Part shown: positions 917-55,600 of the stretch, one piece after another
Layout of the letters: each line of letters begins with the position of its first letter
Numbering within the stretch: position 1 is the stretch's first letter
Assembly: GCA_951406725.2 (NCBI GenBank)
Contig: OX597819.1
Coordinates: forward strand, 30,752,001-30,816,000
Origin: Octopus vulgaris
Lineage: Eukaryota
Length of the DNA stretch: 64,000 nucleotides
Direction: 5' to 3'
Notes under the pieces: model-generated
Database searches by the model: none
What the model saw: the letters and a program-made list of their open reading frames with translations, nothing else
Told to the model about the DNA's origin: nothing
Translations under genes and position numbers: made by a program

Positions 917-1148
917 TATCTGTAAATGTAATATGTGACAATTATGCGGTAGCCATGATAAAACTCAGAGTTTCGGATGCTGAGGTGGAAATCCACATCG
1001 CCATCTCTTCTGTTATCCAGCCATCGGAAAAATTTTTCCAATGGCTAGATAACTGAAGAGATAGCAGCGTGGATTTCCACCTCAGCATCCGAAACTCAGA
1101 GTTTTATCATGGCTACCGAATAATTATTACATATTACATTTACAGATA
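917..1148. repeat. 232-bp imperfect palindrome with no spacer (foldback), Penelope-like remnant
   Basis: 917-1032 is the reverse complement of 1033-1148 (tatctgtaaatgtaatatgt / acatattacatttacagata), centred on ggaaaaa|tttttcc and flanked by (TA)n. Confidence 0.9.
1048..1108 (+). ncRNA. Type I hammerhead ribozyme motif
   Basis: gataa-CTGAAGA-[stem II with gtgga/tccac apex]-GAAA-ctc-a-ga-GTT-ttatc; stem I gataa/ttatc, stem III ACTC-A-GAGT. Confidence 0.7.
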
Positions 1149-4612: not shown

Positions 4613-5011
4613 TCTGTCGCCGGATTAACAGGACACTGATCAAAGTAAATAAACAAACAATCGAGATTGTGAAAGCGAAACGAAATTCTCCCTCTCAATA
4701 ATAGACCACTCTTCAAGTATGATATTAATTATTCTGCACACTTATTAAAAGTAATTATATATAATTTACAATACATCAATATACAATTTTATTTTAAATA
4801 ATTTTTATGAGGTAAGCATTGCTATTAATAGTTTTTTTTGTGTAGTTGTATAGTAATAATTATTGTATGCTTAAAAATTAGGAATTGATGTTTTTTTTTA
4901 TGAGCTTCTTTCCGCTTTACTCGCAGACTTGAAGTAATCAACATTGTCGCATAATAAATACAATTGAACAATAATGTACAATTTTATTTTAAATAATTTT
5001 TATGAGGTAAG
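4613..5011. promoter_or_regulatory. Probable bidirectional promoter and first exon(s) of RPUSD4
   Basis: Lies just upstream of the minus-strand ATG. Two ATGAG|GTAAG donor sites (4807-4816, 5002-5011) splice in frame to the acceptor at 13030. Confidence 0.5.
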
Positions 5012-6435
5012 TGTAGCAAGACATAATAAATTTATTTTTTTTTTTACTGTAGCACGAATTAGTTGTTTGGGACAGACGCTAACAGTTAAAAGTTAACGTT
5101 GCGCAAATTCAAACAACAATTCTAAAAGAACATCTAAAAACTAAAAAAGTTCAGCCAGTTTCTGAGAAGACGTTGAACTGTTAACAATGTATTACAAGAC
5201 CCTCATTCTGTCAGCTTCATCAAGAACATGGGAAATTACTGTTTTGCTTTCCCAGTCATTATGTGAAATCTTGTGCCCATTGTTTCGCATGACATTAGTT
5301 TCTTTTAAGCAGCTACGAGGCTTAATTATATCGTTTTTATTCGCTTTACTGAAATCGGCCTCTCCAGCGAGATCTGTATCTACTTTGTGTCGTGGAATGG
5401 ATTCAGCTCCAATCCAGAGACTCTATTAATTGTAGTAGTAAGTAAAACTGAGGCGATCTTTCGTTTGTAGTAGCACGTTTCCGTCGATGATTTCCGTAAA
5501 AAACTTTTATTTTTTTACATATGGGCTTGCGGGAACATTTGAAGTAATGAGAGCGAAAGAGACTAAGAGGAAGCGATTTTATGACGAGGGAATTTCTTTT
5601 GAAGTTACCGAAGCATTGATGTACATGTGTGTGTGTGAGCGCGCGTGTGTGTGTGTGTTTGATGGGGTGTGGGAGACAGACAGTATGTTGTGTAAGTGAA
5701 GTGCTTCTGTTAATGTGTGTGAAGAGACAGAGAGAGTAATGTGTGAAAGAGAGATAACTGAAATTTTTTACTCGGAAATTTCAACCACCACCCCAAATTT
5801 GACGGAAATTTCGGAAAGACTTCCGCCCGTCCCTGTCTCCCTATTTTCTCCCAATTTTTTTTACAACCCACCCCCCACCCCCGTTTTAGGACACGGAGGT
5901 TCTGGAAAATTGCCAAAAATCGGCATTGTTAACCCCCACTTCCTCCAATTCTTCAATTTTGACTTTTTCCCCAACACTAACCTTAACCCTAAAATCCTAA
6001 CCCTAATACCCTAACCCTAACCAAAACTACAGAAATGTTTTGAAATTTTTGTCTGAATCATAATGTCTATATTTATCTGCATATTTAGAAAAAAAAATTT
6101 TACAAAAATTTCTGAAAAAAAGTAAAAAATGAAGGAAATGGGGGTGTTGGGTGGTAATTAAAAAATGCCAAATTTTTCCAATTTTTTTACAGATTCATAT
6201 TCCCCGTAGCCGAAAAGCGGGGTCTGTGTCAAAAAAAAATTTTTTTTTAAGGGTGGTTTGGGGGCGGGGGGCAGAAGTCTGCTCCAATTACACAAAGAAA
6301 ATTTTTACACGAGAATCAATACTAGCACTCATCCTTTTAGAAATAACAGCCAAATCTCCCTAGTCACACTGCACCGTCTTTGTTGAACAAAACATACCCA
6401 TACGGTATTTTTACATCTTTTGTGTATAAGAGAAA

Positions 6436-6640
6436 ACTCTCTTTACTTGTTTCAGTCATTTGACTGTGGCCATGCTGGAGCACCGCCTTTAATCGAGCAA
6501 CTTGACCCTGAGACTTATTCTTTTTTAAGCCCAGGACTTATTCTATCGGTCTCTTTTGCCGAACCGCTAAGTAACGGGGACATAAACACACCAGCATCGG
6601 TTGTCAAGCAGTGCTAGGGGGACAAACACAGACACACACA

Positions 6641-6881: not shown

Positions 6882-8569
6882 AAACGTGTGTGTGTATATA
6901 TATATATATACATGTGTAGATATGTATGTGTGTGTGTGGCGATAACAATACCCTTTTTCCGAATCAATTTTGGTTAAATCTCTAATTTTTACAAGTGCAC
7001 CTTTAACATTTTTTTTTTAAATTTGCATATTCATAGTCTCCGATATCTAAATAAAACCTAGGAATCCGAAGAAATGTCTGATTCTGGAGCATCTTGCAGT
7101 ATTTGGCCTGTGAAGTTCATGAAGGATAAACCTCTTCTATCCGAAATTACCCTACAGGCAGTAAACCATTCACCCATTCAGATGTTGGGTCAGATCTCAC
7201 CTTCTTTAGATTTGAACTTAACATCATGATTTTAAATGGATCTTCATCGTAGCTAACCTGCCTTATCCAGTCTTGGGGGAAGATTTTCTCCACCACTATT
7301 CACTATTAGTGGATGTACGTAAGCAATGCCTTTTGGATGGAACTACTGATCTTTAAATTGTTGGAAAGAATTTGAATACTCCAGTTGTTAGCCCAACAAT
7401 TTTTATCAATGTACCAAGACACATATACCATTCCCTTTTGAACTCTTTCCCAGAGCTTACTAATTTGAACTTCAATGTGAATAGTCCTACTCATTCAATG
7501 AGACATTTTATTTCCAAGAGTGGTGCACCACTTTTTCACGACTGCATCGTCTTCCTCTGGATAAATTCAAGGCAGCAAAGGCTGAGTTTGACCATATGTT
7601 ACAGCTTGGAGGCATTTGTCCTTCTGCAAGCCCTTGGGCCTCTCCTTTGCAGATGGTCCCTAAAGGTTCTGGAGATTTTAGGTTAAAGTCCATGACAGTA
7701 CCTGATAGATACCCTATTCCTCATTCTTGTGATTTTTCATCTTCTTTACATGAATGTACGGGATTTTCTAAGCATGATTTGGTGCGAGTGTATCATAACA
7801 TTCCAGTCAACCCAGATGTTCCGAAAACTGCAATAACTACACCATTTGGCTCATTTTAATTCTTAACCATACCATTTGGCCTCAGGAATGCTACCAGCAC
7901 ATTTCAGCGGTTCATAGATGAAGTCATTCATGGACTAGGTTTCATCTATGCTTATATTGATCTTCTTCTGAAGAGCATGTCCATTGTGTTTCTGGGTCAC
8001 ATTATTGACAGTGAAGGCATTCAACCTCTTCCTGAGTTCAGAATATTGAAGACCTTCCTCCTCCTCCTTCTCTGTGTCATTTCTTTACCCTTTTGAATTT
8101 TAACGACACTTTATTCCTCACTGTGCAGAGCTTCTATCTCCTCTTACTGAAGTGTCAAAGAATCATCAAAAGAAAAACAAGGATATTGTATTAACTTCGA
8201 ACCAGTTGAAATCTTTTAATTCTACACAAGATGAATTTGCTAAAGTGTCCCTCTTATTGCACCTTGTCTCTGATGCAAAGTTTGTGGTTGATGCATCAGA
8301 CACAGCTGTTGGTGCAGTTTTCCAAAAGTTTCATTTAGGACAGTTACAACCTCTTGCATTTTTCTCCTGGAAGTTGAAACCTGCCGAGACACAATACAGT
8401 ACTTTTGGACGCGAGCTCTTTGCCATTTACCTTGCCATAAAACATTTTCAGCATATTCTCAAGGGAAGAAATTTTATGATCAATAATGATCATAAGCCTC
8501 TTTTGCCTTACGATCGAAGCCAGAAAAATATTGACTGAGGGAAACTCAACATCTCGATTTTATACAAAA

Positions 8570-14624: not shown

Positions 14625-17600
14625 GAGATAGGGGTTGAAAATTCAACCCACCATGGGATAACATATATCCAATATACTGCTAGAGAGGTACCCAACAAAG
14701 TATTGATTGGGTATCATCTGATGGTTGATGTTTGATTGATTTAAGTATGTTTCTCCATTTTCTAATTTTGTAGTATATATATATATATACTTTATTTTAA
14801 GCAGCAGAAAATTCAACAAAATCTGTTACTCTGAGTTTCTCGTTGCCGTTCATCAGACAGTTTTTGCTAGAATGGAACTCTATATATATATTGTGCATTC
14901 CTCTTTATAAGCATCAAATCTATATCTCATTTCCAAATCACCAATGAACAAAGTAGCCAGAAAATGCATGCTCGAATTAGGATTCGTTAATTAAACTTGG
15001 GACTTCTGAATTGGTTGAAACTACCGTGGCTCTAAATATGCTAAGTTCTTTCAGTTTCTATTCCATTTGTTTCTGTAACTCTTATTTTATTGCTACCCTT
15101 ATTTAAACTTCTATTTCAACTGTGATATTTCCAGATTTTTTTCTAATTCTTTACTCGGTTTCTACCACAGATCCTGATGGTCCTCTTTTAGACAGTAAAG
15201 GTTTCCGTATTTTGAAAGACCAAGTTACTGATTTAACTAAACTGACAAGCTATGAAATCGTAAATCATATTAAAAGCAGAATTATTTATAATAGGAGTAA
15301 GTATAACTCTTATTACATTTTTGCATTTTCTGTATATTTATTCCATATATATGTGCAGGCATGGCTATGTGGATAAGGTGTTTGCTTCTCAACCATGTGG
15401 CTTTTAGTTCAGTCTCACTGTATGGCACATTCTACTATAGCTTTAGACCAACTAATGTCTTGTGAGTAAATTTGGTAAACAGAAATTGTACAGAAGCTTG
15501 TTGTGTGTGCATGCATGTCTATGAATGTTTACATTCTGTGTTGAGTAACTGTGAAGCTTGGTATCATTCCATGCCAACGAATCATTTAGCTCTGCACTAT
15601 TGAAAACATACCGAATAAAACAAAATTTTAAATCCCTTACTTGAAAAATAGTATGAAATACTGACAGGAAGGGCCGTTGTAAAATGGAAAACATTGTCTC
15701 AATACGTAGTCATCTAAGCCATGCTAGCATGAAAAAATGGATGTAAAACAAAATCGACAACAGTTTGTATGGCTATGATAAAAAATATTGCAACAATAAT
15801 CACTTTATTAGCACTGCATAAAACACATAGATATATAATAAAGTGGAAAGTTGGTGAACATAAAATTAGGAAGCTAGACACAATATTTAATTAATTAAAA
15901 TTACACAAGCAGAAAAAAAAAAGAAGATAATCATCATCGTTTAACGTCCGCTTTCCATGCTAGCATGGGTTGGACAATTTTGACTGAGGGCTGGTGAACC
16001 AGATGGCTGCACCAGGCTCCAATCTTGATCTGGCAGAGTTTCTACAGCTGGATGCCCTTCCTAACTCCAACCACTCCGTGAGTGAAGTGGGTGCTTTTTA
16101 CGTGCCAGACGAGGCTGGCAACAGCCATAATCAGATGGTGCTTTTTACGTGCCACCGGCACGGAGGTCAGTCGGGGATGGCAATGGCCACGATCGGATGG
16201 TGCTTTTTACGTGCCACCGGCACCGGCACGGTGACCAGTCGGGGCAGCGCTGGCAACAACCACATTCGGATGGTTCTTTTACGTGCCACCGGCACTGGTA
16301 AGTATTAAGTATGACATGGGTACTGATGGAGAGCTACTAATAGTTTGGTGGTTAACATTGGAAGAGGGTGACATTATTGCAGACTAACATTGAGATAGAA
16401 TGAAAGAATGCAGTTTAGAGAATTGTTACTATTGTTGCCATCAAAGTCGGCTCTCTTGAGGAGTGGCTGTGTGGTAAGTAGCTTGCATACCACATGGTTC
16501 CGGGTTCAGTCCCACTGCATGGCACCTTGGGCAAGTGTCTTCTACTATAGCCTCGGGCCAACCAAAGCCTTGTGAGTGTGTTTGGTAGACGGAAACTGAA
16601 TGAAGCCCGTCGTATATATGTATATGTATGTATGTGGTGTACATGTTGGTGTATCTGTGTTTGTCCCCCACAACATCGCTTGACAACTGATGCTGGTGTG
16701 TTTACGTCCCCGTAACTTAGCGGTTCGGCAAAAGAGACAGATAGAATAAGTACTAGGCTTACAAAGAATAAGTCCTGGGGCCGATTTGCTCAACTAAAGG
16801 TGGTGCTCCAGCATGGCCAGAGTCAAATGACTGAAACAAGTAAAAGGGTTGCAGGAAGCAATGCTGGAAAGGGGATAATATTCTGGAGAGGGGAGATTTA
16901 GAAAAGTGGGGACATGAAAGTCTTGCAAGGGAAACAGTATAGGTGATGAGAGGTCAACTGAGTACATCAGAGGTCTTGAGTGAAGGTGATATGATCAGAC
17001 CTTAGTGGTGGGTTATGTTGATGGCATAGCACAGGATTGAAATTCATTACAGCTCAGTGCAATGTATACTGGTATAGAAATATGGATGTTACATCATCAT
17101 CGTTTAATGTCCGCTTTCCATGCTAGCATGGGTTGGACGATTTTGACTGAGGGCTGGCGAACCAGATGGCTGCACCAGGCTCCAGTCTTGATCTGGCAGA
17201 TTTTCTACAGCTGGATGTCCTTCCTAACGCCAACCACTCCAAGAGTGTTGCGGGTGCTTTTTACGTGCCACCGGCACGGGCGTCAGTCAGGCGGTACTGG
17301 CAACGACCTTGCTCGAATCTTTTTACACATGCCAGTGAAGCGACGTTGGTAACAATCACGCTCGAATTGTGCCCTTTTACGTGCCACGGGTACGGAAGCC
17401 AGTTGGCTCCTCTGGCAACGATCTCGCTCGGATTAGCACCCTACTAGCACATGCACAAGTGCTAGTAAGGCGACGCTGGTAACGATCATACTCAAATGGT
17501 GCCCTAGGAAAATTATTTTAATCTATGATAGAAGTTAAAATCCTTAGTACAAAACGTGTAGGTAATGTTATTAATACTCTATTTTAAATATTAAAGATTA

Positions 17601-20252
17601 CTTGAAATGGAGTACATGTTTCTTGTTGAGAAAAATACTAAACAATGAGTTATTACTACACTCAATTATGATATCAATATACTGAAATACTTTCTTTTTT
17701 TCTGCATTATTTTTGGTTCTCAGAATGTTATAGCATTCTACAGTTTTGATGCAATGTTGCATCTGAAACTAATTCCTTTCTCATATACTATTTACAGTTA
17801 GTTATTCATTCCTTCAGTTTATATGTAGTTCATGAAGTTATGAAAAACAGACTCAATTACACATTAGGCTCTAATTATATAATACTATTGCTAACAATTA
17901 ATACAATATTCTCTAGTCATTAAGTGGTTTTGTTATTTAGTTCAATGCTTCGTTTATCTGTCCAAAGCATTTGAAATGTTTTAAGGAATTATCTGCATGA
18001 AACATCAAGTAAAAGCTGAAGATATAAATTTTACTCATTCATTGCATAAACTTACCATTTTTTTACTGATGTCGTAATTGTAGAAATAAGCTGTAGTCAG
18101 TCTTCACCTTGTTTTGAATTACTCTCTCTTTACTCTTTGACTTGTTTCAGTCATTTGACTGCGGCCATGCTGGAGCACCACCTTAGTCGAGTAAATCGAC
18201 CCCAGGACTTATTCTTTGTAAGCCCAGTACTTATTCTATCGGTCTCTTTTGCCGAACCGCTAAGTGACAGGGACGTAAACACACCAGCATCGGTTGTCAA
18301 GCAATGCTAGGGGGACAAATACAGACACACAAACACATACACACACATATATATATATATATACGACAGGCTTCTTTCAGTTTCCATCTACCAAATCTAT
18401 TCACAAGGCATTGGTCAGCCCGGGGCTATAGCAGAAGACACTTGCCCAAGATGCCACGTAGTGGGACTGAACCCGGAACCATGTGGTTGGTTAGCAAGCT
18501 ACTTACCACACAGCCACTCCTGCGCCTATAACATTTATTTTAAATATTTGGTTTAATGAATCTGCATTCTTTATTTTTACGTAATCCTGTCTACTATAGG
18601 CGCAAGGTCTGAAATTTGGTGGGGAGGGACTTGTGGGTTACGTCAACCCCAGTATTCAACTGGTTCTTTTTTAATTAACCCCAAGACAATGAAAGGCAAA
18701 GTCAACCTTGATGGCATTTGAAATCGGAACATAAAGCTGGAAGAAATATACTTTTTCTGGTGCAGTAATGATTCTCCTAGTTCACCACCTTTATTTCTTG
18801 ACCTTTTTGACACCAACCCAGCTGAAACCACCTCTGGCTCTAGTACAAATGTCTTGTTTTCATAAGGTTTGAATTAAAATCTTCCACCAACACTTAGTCA
18901 CAATTTATGTTCCTAACGCAAGCTTAATGATAACTAAGTTATTTTACTAAATTCTTTGTTATATTTAAAACTAGCAGTATCGCCCGGCGTTGCTTGGGTT
19001 TGTAAGGGAAATAACTATATAAGCATTTTTAGAGAGTTATAGCCAAAAAATAGCAAAAAAATGCATTAAAAATGGGGGAAAAATTATGGTAAATTTTTTT
19101 TTAAATCGTTGACTCATCGTAGACATTTTTAGAGAGTTACTTCCCTTATATAATAGCGAAAAAATGCATTAAAATGGAAAAAAAGGATGGTAAATTTTTT
19201 TAATATTGTAGACTCATCGTAGACGCGCGCTAATACCCAGAAGGGCTCGATATGAATCACAACTATAGGATACCCGGTTTTGGTTAAACTGCACTGCAAA
19301 ATGTGGGAGTAGTTAGGAATCTAAATCGTAGGAGACAGACACACAACTTCACTTTTATATATAAAGATTAATTGAAAGAAACACAGAGCATCTCAACAGA
19401 AATATGGTAATAAAAGGGTTGAATAATAGAAATGAAAGAATATGAAAGAATGTGAAATGTATTTTCTTATTTTATGTTACAGATGACATTGTTGCTATCA
19501 ATAAGCCATATGGCCTGTCTTCTCATGGTAAGTTGATATTTATGAAGCCTATCTTTTATTTAAACTCAGTGAATGCCTTAACAATTCATTAATATGGCAA
19601 GCTAATGAAAGAGCCTTTACACCTGACTTTTCTAATAAGTGACACTTATGCTTTCCAAATATACTGCAGTTTTAAGACATTTCAGAAATGTCAAAGTATT
19701 TATTGTTTAGTGGTAAAGTGTAGCATGTTACCTATCTCCACTTTAAAAATAATTAAATTTTGTTTCTTATGTAATATAACTTTAGAAAGGCAATGACAAA
19801 CTATTCCGCTTTTTGTATTTGGATTGCAAAAGGTTGAAAATCACTGCTCTACACAATCACTTGGCCTGCTAGAAATAGTCACCATATTTCCTACAAGTCA
19901 CACCCTAAAGTCAGTCAGTGTGAGTTGAAGAGTTAAGAATTTTGCTTCTCAACTACTTGGTTTTGAGTTTAGTCCCACTGTGTTGCACCTTAGGCAAGTG
20001 TCTTCTTTTAAAGCCCCTGGTTGATTAATATTTTGTGAGTGAATTTAGTAAACATATATATATCTACCATCTTTATAATGTTATTAATTAACATGAAAAT
20101 AATTATATGTATTGATGGAAAACCTCTATAAACGGCCGATGATTGCTCAACATTTTAAAACTGTTGTAATACTTACAATGTTTAATAAAATGATGTAGTG
20201 TGAAACGATCTTACCAAATTACCGAAGATATTCTTGTTGCTTATTTTGATTT

Positions 20253-20294
<42 letters not shown>

Positions 20295-52803: not shown

Positions 52804-52995
52804 AGATATATATCATGGCACATAGATATAGAGGGAAGACGGTCATTCCAGCAGATCATGAAGACATTATGGGGAATATTTTGTTGAGATTTTAGATTTA
52901 GTTGAGTTCTGTTAATTTTATATTATGTGCCATTTTTCAATGATCCTCTTTTTATTTGAATTAGATATTTAATAACTAGATATACCCTGGATGGG

Positions 52996-53303
52996 AAGGC
53001 ATGTGGTTTAGGGGTTAGGGCATTCGGCTCACGATTGTAAGGTCGTGAGTTCGATTCCCAGTGATGCGTTGTGTCCCTGAGCAAGACACTTAATTTCACG
53101 TTGCTCCAGTCCAATCAGCTGGCAAAATTGAGTAGTACCTGTATTTCAAAGGGCCAACCTTGACACACTCTGTGTCATGCTGAATTTCCCTGAGAACTAC
53201 GTTAGGTGGACGTGTGTCTGTGGATTGCTCAGTCACTTGCACGTTAATTTCACGAGCAGGCTGTTCCGTTGATCGTATCAGCTGGGACCCTCGTCGTCGT
53301 AAC
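52996..53303 (+). mobile_element. tRNA-derived SINE family E
   Basis: A/B boxes (gagttcgattccc), gagcaagacact core and ttaatttcacgagcaggctgttccgttg tail. Confidence 0.7.
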
Positions 53304-53451
53304 CTACTGTTCTTACTCCAGCATAGGAGTAACTTTTATGCTGGAGTAAGAAGAGCATGTTCTTTGTCTATCTCCTTAACTTCTTGGAGATTTTAGGTAG
53401 AATTATACTAATGTGTCCATCTGTTCTAATTTAACTAAATTCTATGTCTTT

Positions 53452-53540
53452 GTGCAGCTGAAGATTGCTCTGCATTTTAAATTGATGTAATAATTGCATT
53501 GTTCAATTAAATGGAGTTGCATGAAACGATCGTACTGCAT
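53452..53540 (+). ncRNA. Type I hammerhead ribozyme motif with an extended stem II
   Basis: tgcag-CTGAAGA-[long imperfect hairpin]-GAAA-cgatc-GTA-ctgca; palindromic stem III ACGATCGT. Confidence 0.72.
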
Positions 53541-55600
53541 TACCTCTGGATATCCTTGTTGCTTATTTTGATTTTAATCACCTTACTTTGAAATTGTATG
53601 GATAATATCGTACTAAATTCTGGTCCCTCAACTTAGGTACCATATTCATCTGAATCCAAATTTTTGCTGAACTCATCTACCATACACACAATGTGTGTGT
53701 GTGTGTTCTTTTATTCTTTTACATGTTACAGTCATTTGACTGCGGTCATGCTGGAGCACCACCTTAAAGGGTTTTAGTCGAAGAAATCAACCTCAGCCTA
53801 GTACTTATTCTGTTGGTGTCTTTTGCCAAACCTCTAATATTATGGGGATATAAACACACCAGCATTGGTTATTAAGTGATGGTGGGGGTGGAGTGTGAAC
53901 ACAGACACACATAAATGCATACATATGTCTATAATACATTAAAAGTGAGCTTGAATCATGCTTGCTTGCAATGTTACCCAGCCAAACTGGCGCATCATAG
54001 GAAAATACTATGAATTAAGTTCCCTCTGAAATGTGAATACAAATGGAATAAAACAAGTTTTGCATAAATTGGACAAGTGGTTATTGAAATATTAGGGGTT
54101 TTCAGGGTATAAATACCCAAAATGGTACATAATGGGTAATTATTCTGAAAATAATTTAACCCTGAAAGGGAAGAAGCTCTTACCTTTCGATTAGACACAG
54201 TGACTTGACAATGAAAACATCTGATTTGTTTTTTACAGCAAATGTTTCTATTTTTGCTTTTGTTAAACATAATATTTTAATCATTGAGAAATATTTTTAA
54301 GCAAATGTGATTTCAAAAATGTAAGTCGTTTGTACAGTAAGTATTTACATTTTAGCTTTCTTTAAACAGACAATATTTTAATATTTTTTAAAATCATTTT
54401 CAAGTGAATATCATCGCAAAAATTTCTTTTGACATATTTAAAAAATATTTTAAAGTGGATATGACTTTAAAAATACGGTAAATATTTTGTAAAAGACCCA
54501 TTCATAATTTTGGTGTGAAATAATTTTTTTCATAGGGTTTTTTTCAAGTGCATTCAACGTATCTCACCTCCAAAGATTTGGCTGATAATTCTAGTACGCC
54601 CTGCTACCATGTAACAGCTATTTGCGATAAAGGACCCGAAATACCTTTTACATGGTAGCAGAAAATGCAAAAAATAGCAGTGAAATCTTTCCCTTTCTGG
54701 GAAAAGGAACCGTTTATGCATGATTTCGATGTCACATTTGTTGAAAGAATGCAAAATAACTTAAAAAAGAAATTTTTTTAAATGCGAAACAAAACTCCAT
54801 TGCTGGAAAACTCAGACTTTCCCAGTGATTCAATGGGTCACGGGTAGTCTAATATATTACATATATATGACAGGCTTCTTTCAGTTTCCATTTACCAAAT
54901 CCACTCAGAAGGCTTTGGTCAGCCTGAGGCTATAGTAGAAAACATGCCCAAGGTGTCACACAGTGGGACTGAATCCAGAACCATGTGGTTGGGAAGCAAG
55001 TGTCTTACCACACAGCTAATCCTGCACCTATATACACAAAAGATATGGTTGTATGGTTAAGAAGTTTGCTTTGCTGTTACATAGTTTGAGGTTCAGTTCC
55101 ACTGAGTGGCACCTTGAGCAAGGGTCTTCTGTTATAGTTTTGAGCTGACCAAATCCTTGTGAGTAAATTTCGTAGACAGAAAAAGTGTCGAAGCTTGCTG
55201 TATACATGTATGCTTGTGTGTGTATGTGTGTCACCCACCACTACATGACAACCAGTGTTAGCTTGTTCACATCCATAAAATAGTACTTAAAAATAAGGAC
55301 TGGAGTAAATTTCTCAATTAAACCTTTCAAAGCGATACTACAGTGCAATGACTGAAACACATAAAAGATACATACATACATGCATACATACATATATATA
55401 TATCATCATCATCGTTTAACGTCCGTTCTCCATGCTAGCATGGGTTGGATGGTTCGACCAGGGATCTGGGATGCCAGAAGGCTGCACCAGGCTCCAGTCT
55501 GATCTGGCAGTGTTTCTACAGCTGGATGCCCTTCCTAACGCCAACCACTCCGTGTGTGTAGTGGGTGCTTTTTACGTGCCACCTGCACATATATATATAT

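What the first reader, a model, noticed from the sequence alone, without database searches (positions are those of the whole stretch)
53452..53540. Intergenic hammerhead with an intact core and an unusually long stem II
Seen: 5-bp stem I (tgcag/ctgca), CUGAAGA, GAAA, palindromic stem III ACGAUCGU and a GUA triplet. Stem II is a 58-nt imperfect hairpin whose closing pair is U-U. This is the best candidate in the window for residual activity.
Basis: partly seen in the sequence, partly recalled or inferred. Interest (0 to 1): 0.72.

Follow-up and report, generated by a model that had tools for sequence, protein, structure and literature searches.

The report
Long-armed hammerhead of a Penelope retrotransposon
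This is a real hammerhead-ribozyme motif, but it is the stranded tail of a Penelope-like jumping gene with hundreds of equally intact copies in the genome; its unusually long arm is shared by many related element families, and it would likely cut RNA only slowly and in pairs.

Summary
The motif is not a lone intergenic ribozyme. It lies in the last ~360 nt of a 5'-truncated Penelope-like retroelement (PLE). [quoted passage not shown]

853 copies of this family match an intact-core pattern (control 0). 4,507 motifs with the same helix III have 44-72 nt between the core halves (control 2). Helices I and II covary across 11 families. The U-U closure is a published Hydra-clade trait.

What looks new is the helix II length: Hydra-clade motifs and the descriptor I saw in print span at most ~26 nt, and Rfam misses this one.

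Cleavage is untested. Folding predicts a trapped monomer that palindrome dimerisation could just about rescue. RNA-seq shows family reads crossing the site and almost none at this locus, but the runs may come from another species. Verdict: new variant of a known kind; this copy is an ordinary fossil.

The parts
53305..53327 (-). short inverted copy of the element's own 5'-truncated end (PLE-type 5' inversion)
   Evidence: self-inverted match 53301-53361, 82%; 11 of 29 other copies also have an inverted 5' piece
53328..53688 (+). 5'-truncated 3'-terminal fragment (pseudo-LTR) of a Hydra-type Penelope-like retroelement, here called family A
   Evidence: 2780 first-look candidates, the 40 best 96-100% identical; shared right end and ragged left end; longer copies continue into an RT-EN ORF
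53452..53457 (+). hammerhead helix I, 5' strand
   Evidence: pair probability 0.73-1.0; first two pairs formed in 11 of 11 families with 3-4 pair types
53458..53464 (+). core CUGAAGA (C3-A9)
53465..53522 (+). 58-nt imperfect helix II: U-U at the base, 3-bp basal stem, middle helix, 6-bp apical hairpin
   Evidence: fold; compensatory changes in related families
53523..53526 (+). core GAAA (G12-A15.1)
53526..53533 (+). 8-nt palindromic helix III, predicted dimerisation helix
   Evidence: self-duplex -10.0 kcal/mol; other families use different palindromes
53534..53534 (+). H17; predicted cleavage 3' of this A (GUA)
   Evidence: hammerhead numbering; not tested experimentally
53535..53540 (+). 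hammerhead helix I, 3' strand
53541..53688 (+). sequence that is the 5' leader of the next ORF in tandem copies; position 53685 maps 36 nt before the ATG
   Evidence: L236 junction
53689..53705 (.). CA/TG simple repeat at the insertion site
   Evidence: 28 of 29 other copies run into a simple repeat, mostly (TA)n (read by eye)

Best explanation
This is the type I hammerhead motif in the terminal repeat (pseudo-LTR) of a Penelope-like retroelement, likely of the Hydra clade, left here as a ~360-nt truncated insertion, and it likely cleaves only slowly and as a dimer. SHOWN: anatomy, repeat membership, position downstream of an RT + GIY-YIG ORF on the same strand, one hammerhead in each pseudo-LTR of intact sister elements, the cut site 186-210 nt before the next ATG, and covariation of helices I and II across families. 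INFERRED: in a tandem element the two hammerheads of one transcript pair their 8-nt palindromes into a shared helix III and cut after GUA, giving a unit-length RNA that may be re-ligated into a circle. The element's RT starts about 40-150 nt downstream of the site at a nick in (TA)n-type DNA, copies back through the hammerhead and usually stops early, which made this copy. As a monomer the core is predicted to be trapped, because GAUUG pairs with CGAUC of the palindrome. My odds: the family RNA cleaves measurably as a dimer in vitro ~0.6; this locus cleaves in vivo ~0.05-0.1.
For: Repeat membership and ends. Family-A ORF pieces in L099/L098 with DKT, CxCX5C, CxxC and CxH; Pfam GIY-YIG E 0.01, below cut-off. 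Intact sister ORFs of 941-1091 aa, 64-68% identical over the RT pieces; L227 and L228 have RWK-type motifs and a hammerhead with a 60-nt helix II on both sides. ESM Atlas hits 0.94-0.98 to eukaryotic clusters with HTH_animal, DUF8422 or RVT_1 on 16-84% of members. Cut-to-ATG distances 186 nt (L236) and 208-210 nt. Genome counts: 853 vs 0, 4,507 vs 2, 1,760 vs 2. Covariation in 40 copies / 11 families picked on core and helix III only: I.1 11/11, I.2 11/11, II.2 10/11, II.3 11/11 paired. In 9 related sequences, 8 of 17 pairs have double changes and 90.5% of cells pair, vs 19-48% when slid. Literature: Hydra-clade definition and hammerheads with U...U (PMC8557442); U10.1-U11.1 is natural and the best-tolerated mismatch (PMC3088659); GUA works in natural hammerheads (PMC1636495); PLE hammerheads are slow and dimeric (PMC4209133).
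Against: No cleavage data. Pfam gave nothing for the two intact ORFs and PDB phmmer nothing, so RT identity rests on motifs, the Atlas and by-eye likeness to published Hydra proteins; no tree was built. The window's helix II alone is weak (z -1.54) and the catalytic fold lies 4.4-4.7 kcal/mol above the ensemble. Genomic 5' ends do not pile up at the cut site (1 of 29 starts at 53535), and RNA reads show no begin/end pile-up there. In the anole PLE, cleavage was dispensable for insertion in vitro and no cut-site ends were seen in RNA-seq (PMC11167929). The alignment is small, its members are related, and the structure was drawn from them.
Confidence: 0.88

Rival explanations
1. The motif is homologous to a hammerhead, but in family A it is catalytically dead or nearly so. 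The fold is kept as a protein-binding, packaging or translation element of the PLE leader.
For: Core predicted trapped, P about 5e-4 for a hammerhead-compatible fold; U-U closure; reads and genomic copies cross the site; cleavage dispensable in the anole PLE; Cervera and de la Pena leave non-cleavage functions open.
Against: All catalytic positions and H17 are kept across many unrelated families while the helices covary. Nearest-neighbour folding ignores tertiary core energy. PLE hammerheads tested in print cleave, slowly.
Confidence: 0.25
2. A domesticated, locus-specific ribozyme that processes a host transcript here.
For: The core is intact, and only one position in 53452-53540 (53492, apical loop) differs from most family copies.
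Against: 9 of 29 flank-picked copies are equally intact and 853 match genome-wide. Core positions vary 7/273 vs 51/1447 in helix II and 83/1798 upstream, with no clear copy-level selection. Depth at this locus's own junction is at most 1.8, and 145 of 167 reads at 53492 in X21 carry the family base.
Confidence: 0.04
3. A non-LTR retrozyme or hammerhead SINE: a short non-coding unit amplified through circular RNA.
For: Most copies are short and non-coding; retrozymes are argued to derive from PLE pseudo-LTRs (bioRxiv 10.64898/2026.07.22.740005).
Against: No head-to-tail arrays of a short monomer were seen in the first 30 loci. Left ends are ragged and run into a multi-kb 3' region and an RT-EN ORF.
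Confidence: 0.03
4. A chance arrangement of short motifs in AT-rich DNA.
For: No Rfam match; the whole motif folds no better than shuffles (z -0.91).
Against: 0 hits in 300 simulated windows; thousands of genomic matches against 0-2 controls; covariation across families.
Confidence: 0.01

Closest known systems
Hammerheads of Hydra-clade PLEs (Craig et al. 2021, PMC8557442 File S2: Penelope-1..18_HM, Hydra-1_oBim, Hydra-2_aMil)
   Same: Type I, sense strand, near the 3' end; CUGANGA-U...U-GAA with a UGC/GCA basal stem; short helix I; self-complementary helix III; (TA)n targets; ORF motifs RWK, DKT, CxCX5C, CxxC, CxH.
   Different: Listed Hydra motifs span about 9-26 nt between the core halves; here 58 (19-86 in this genome). 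Helix III is an even 8-nt palindrome rather than 4 bp around 1-2 nt. Elements are about 4.6 kb or more, with 1.2-3.4 kb between stop codon and hammerhead, against generally under 3 kb.
Minimal PLE hammerheads (Cervera and de la Pena 2014, PMC4209133)
   Same: In pseudo-LTRs; palindromic helix III; proposed dimer; mostly dispersed single copies; inverted pairs; low activity expected.
   Different: Their descriptor allows helix II of 3-7 bp with a 3-10-nt loop and so cannot find this motif; their consensus has G10.1-C11.1.
PLE-X1 hammerheads of Selaginella, marked 'deviates from canonical structure' (PMC8557442 File S2)
   Same: PLE-associated motifs with about 50 nt between the core halves: a precedent for long helix II.
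   Different: Plant, endonuclease-less, rDNA-targeting elements of another clade with a different helix III.
Poseidon element of Anolis (PAc; PMC11167929)
   Same: Hammerhead at the pseudo-LTR/ORF junction; genomic 3' ends downstream of the site; no cut-site ends in RNA-seq.
   Different: There the ORF starts inside helix II; here the ATG is 186-210 nt past the cut site.

Membership tests
Type I hammerhead ribozyme | Core C3 U4 G5 A6 N7 G8 A9 / G12 A13 A14 A15.1 / U16.1 H17 | tested here: met
Type I hammerhead ribozyme | Helices I, II and III around the core, open at helix I, with covariation | tested here: met
   helix III is only 2 bp as a monomer
Type I hammerhead ribozyme | Quasi-conserved G10.1-C11.1 pair | tested here: not met
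   U-U here; a known natural variant and usual in Hydra-clade motifs; sister families have G-C, A-U, A-A or A-C
Type I hammerhead ribozyme | Tertiary contact between helices I and II | not tested
   no tool for it; a long helix II moves loop 2 far from helix I
Type I hammerhead ribozyme | Site-specific self-cleavage after H17 | not testable with these tools
   RNA-seq showed no end pile-up, but such libraries rarely show natural ends
Rfam hammerhead models | Score at gathering threshold or E<=10 | tested here: not met
PLE pseudo-LTR hammerhead | Lies in the terminal repeat on the ORF strand, once per pseudo-LTR | tested here: met
   L099, L236 (family A) and L227, L228 (sisters)
PLE pseudo-LTR hammerhead | Short palindromic helix III | tested here: met
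   58 nt vs at most 26
Hydra-clade PLE | Single ORF, RT followed by C-terminal GIY-YIG | tested here: met
   broken in the family-A copies seen, intact in sisters; Pfam support weak, Atlas support
Hydra-clade PLE | DKT, CxCX5C linker, CxxC and CxH flanking the conserved E and N | tested here: met
   family A and sisters
Hydra-clade PLE | N-terminal RWK | tested here: inconclusive
   pattern found in L227, L228, L230, L231; RWR in L229; a stop lies at that place in family-A copy L236
Hydra-clade PLE | CCHH motif absent from the endonuclease | tested here: inconclusive
   not seen by eye in the printed ORFs; no alignment to CCHH-bearing clades was made
Hydra-clade PLE | Insertion into (TA)n, 5' truncation, inverted 5' copies, optional tail | tested here: met
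   28 of 29 end in simple repeats, 11 of 29 have an inverted piece, right ends spread over 53655-53694
Hydra-clade PLE | Phylogenetic placement with published Hydra families | not tested
   by-eye likeness to Hydra-1_Obim only
Non-LTR retrozyme | Tandem short non-coding monomers, each with a hammerhead | tested here: not met

The most novel reading that the evidence does not exclude
The long helix II is a working module of a cephalopod radiation of PLE hammerheads. Together with the self-trapping GAUUG/CGAUC pairing it makes a switch that fires only when two copies meet or when the element's protein binds. With more than 6,000 intact-core copies sharing one palindrome, fossil copies inside host introns and UTRs could pair in trans and cut host RNAs: a genome-wide ribozyme layer that Rfam and the published descriptor do not detect.
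Probability: 0.08. Interest if true: 0.8.

Novelty: new variant of a known kind. Interest (0 to 1): 0.4.

Why it matters
This copy alone matters little. The set it belongs to is more useful. At least 4,507 long-helix-II hammerhead motifs in one animal genome fall outside the Rfam models (tested on this window) and outside the published PLE descriptor, so censuses of animal ribozymes and statements that a PLE 'lacks a hammerhead' may be under-counts; the 'half-core' cases noted for Naiads at 35-50 nt spacing deserve a second look. The sister families form a natural series: helix II of 19-86 nt, G-C vs U-U closure, and intact pLTR-ORF-pLTR elements. That makes the open question of what PLE hammerheads do directly testable.

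Tried and rejected
Rfam: nothing.

A 9-mer match suggested a second hammerhead 1.4 kb upstream in long copies; it was a chance match.

A repeat next to one long copy (L058 ~4950-6530) was followed as a possible continuation and is an unrelated repeat.

An apparent flip-flop terminus is most likely the usual 5' inversion, since most copies continue into the ORF.

Neptune clade was my first guess; it was dropped for Hydra on motifs.

Hidden ORF in the long 3' region: rejected. Indel lengths mod 3 were 117/288/105 for 0/1/2 between copies and 1 of 29 in frame between the long repeat units, with no similarity to the ORF.

Enrichment of genomic 5' ends at the cut site: not seen.

RNA: no listed holder is on record as RNA. 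Three raw RNA runs of one study (about 6% of each read) and one contig set were laid. A young sister element got no reads at 95%, so these runs may be from another species, and the RNA results are inconclusive.

The L161 row was mis-cut by 5 nt and is disregarded.

Pfam and PDB gave nothing for the intact ORFs.

Lunse et al. 2017 on dimeric PLE hammerheads was not held. File 1 of the PMC4209133 supplements could not be searched, and figures were not seen. Any of these might show long-helix or cephalopod examples.

Earlier scan findings were not available.

Full report
OBSERVATION. The 58 nt fold into an imperfect hairpin that alone is only slightly better than shuffles (-12.5 kcal/mol, z -1.54, 13 of 200). 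The whole descriptor hits once in the window and never in 300 simulated windows. Rfam gives nothing here. 'Intergenic' is unproven: 26 of 33 long frames scanned show only an LTR-element RNase H piece at 8104-8535.

WHAT IT SITS IN. A search of the own genome (2.8 Gb, 227 contigs) with 53400-53600 gave 2780 first-look candidates, the 40 best 96-100% identical. Copies share a right end at about 53655-53694 and have ragged left ends. Of 29 other copies picked by the flank downstream of the motif only, 11 have an inverted 5' piece and 28 run into a simple repeat, mostly (TA)n by eye. The window copy is 53328-53688 with a short inverted piece at 53305-53327.

Walking left through longer copies gave a non-coding region with three ~850-nt units about 70% alike, and then the end of an ORF. 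In L099 and L098 this ORF, broken by stops, has an RT-like region with DKT and a C-terminal endonuclease with CxCX5C, CxxC and CxH (Pfam GIY-YIG E 0.01, under cut-off). These are the motifs given for the Hydra clade of PLEs (PMC8557442, section 11 read).

A protein search found 150 scored relatives among 4036 candidates, many with 800-1090-aa open frames. Of 12 regions fetched, L227 and L228 are pLTR-ORF-pLTR elements with a hammerhead of 60-nt helix II on each side, about 4.6 kb apart. In family-A copy L236 the window-type sequence precedes the ORF: the cut site is 186 nt and the window copy's end 36 nt before the ATG; in three sisters the leader is 208-210 nt. Pfam and PDB do not recognise the intact ORFs. 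The Atlas returns eukaryotic clusters with RT-associated families at 0.94-0.98, and the proteins resemble Hydra-1_Obim by eye. No tree was built.

HOW UNUSUAL IS THE MOTIF. Within this genome it is not unusual. An exact family-A pattern with core, 3-bp helix I and palindrome matches 853 times (control 0), and 9 of 29 flank-picked copies are fully intact. With only the core and this helix III fixed, 4,507 motifs have a 44-72-nt spacer (control 2) and 1,760 have 14-43 nt (control 2). Other palindromes occur, with spacers up to 86 nt. Families B, D and E with long spacers also lie downstream of the same kind of ORF.

In 40 copies taken in genome order, forming 11 families, helix I pairs 1 and 2 form in 11 of 11 and helix II pairs 2 and 3 in 10 and 11 of 11, with several pair types, whereas the closing 10.1-11.1 position pairs in only 6 of 11. 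Nine related long-arm sequences show double changes in 8 of 17 pairs, including the apical hairpin (small, related set). So the fold was under selection in the source elements. Individual copies show no clear selection on the core.

In print, U...U at the base of helix II is the usual state of Hydra-clade hammerheads (File S2 of PMC8557442, supplement parts 1-2 read; also the Hydra row in the PMC4209133 supplement). U10.1-U11.1 is natural and the best-tolerated mismatch (PMC3088659, passages), and GUA is used by natural hammerheads (PMC1636495, passages). The Hydra motifs listed span about 9-26 nt, and the published descriptor allows at most 26. Two Selaginella PLE-X1 motifs of about 50 nt are a precedent in another clade. 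Searches for a report of long-arm or cephalopod PLE hammerheads found none beyond Hydra-1_oBim (short arm) and 235 Rfam hammerhead hits in giant squid (PMC6962438, passages). A 2026 octopus repeat annotation has no occurrence of 'ribozyme' or 'hammerhead' (PMC13282606, passages). Lunse et al. 2017 was not available; I saw only its title and a review's summary.

MECHANISM. Shown: position, anatomy, covariation. Inferred, from PMC4209133 (parts 1-2 of 4 read) and PMC11167929 (part 1 of 4 and passages): a transcript of a tandem element carries two hammerheads whose palindromes form a shared 8-bp helix III (-10.0 kcal/mol), cutting after GUA to give a unit-length RNA that may circularise. Reverse transcription starts downstream of the site and copies back through it, so the template was uncut or re-joined there, and early stops give copies like this one. 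Only 1 of 29 copies begins at the cut site.

For the window RNA, folding predicts that GAUUG of the core and helix II base pairs with CGAUC of the palindrome. This puts the catalytic fold 4.4-4.7 kcal/mol uphill, which dimerisation roughly repays (-0.8). These numbers ignore tertiary energy.

ACTIVITY OF THIS COPY. No second intact copy of this family lies in the window. In three RNA-seq runs of one study, family reads cover the element at up to about 185-fold on both strands, with no pile-up of ends at 53534/53535. Depth at the locus's own junction (53305-53346) is at most 1.8, and 145 of 167, 160 of 173 and 85 of 104 reads at 53492 carry the family base rather than this copy's. Most reads are only 90-95% alike and a young sister element got no reads, so the runs may be from another species. 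This is weak evidence either way.

VERDICT. A real hammerhead motif, correctly read, belonging to a known system: the pseudo-LTR hammerhead of a PLE, likely Hydra clade. The copy is an ordinary fossil. The long, covarying helix II shared by thousands of copies in many families appears undescribed in the papers I could see and escapes standard searches. New variant of a known kind; interest 0.40.

Noticed in passing
window 20080-20262 (+): Copy of sister family B with a 59-nt helix II and U-U closure; in this copy the core and both helices I and III carry mutations. The family has 1755 first-look candidates.
   Followed up: yes
window 1048-1108 (+) and 14823-14860 (-): Two more intact-core hammerhead motifs with a 9-nt self-complementary helix III like published Hydra-clade motifs; the 14823 family flanks a 962-aa ORF in L233.
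   Followed up: partly
L058 6641-9290, L099, L098 (3' region of family A): Non-coding region after the stop codon with three ~850-nt units about 70% alike; the related copies L234 and L238 lack the repeats. 1.2-3.4 kb lie between stop and hammerhead across families, long for this clade.
   Followed up: partly
L227, L228, L229, L230, L231, L232: Sister PLEs with 941-1091-aa open frames and near-identical hammerheads between copies; the ORFs have long Asn-rich low-complexity linkers. Pfam recognised neither of the two scanned.
   Followed up: partly
L229 812-928 (+): Hammerhead with an 86-nt, very stable helix II (z -8.1) and a GUC triplet.
   Followed up: no
window ~52995-53304 (+): tRNA-derived SINE with A/B-box-like and CORE-like segments (labels recalled), whose 3' end is replaced by the PLE insertion; further SINE-like repeats start at 53706.
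   Followed up: partly
L236 2344-2365: A pyrimidine run ending in CAG lies just before the ORF start and looks like a splice acceptor; PLE leaders can hold introns.
   Followed up: no
window 8104-8535 (+): RNase H-like domain of an LTR retroelement (Pfam RT_RNaseH, E 1e-20).
   Followed up: no
L058 4953-6530 and L055 2347-4363: An unrelated high-copy repeat (2759 candidates) inserted in (TA)n; not classified.
   Followed up: no
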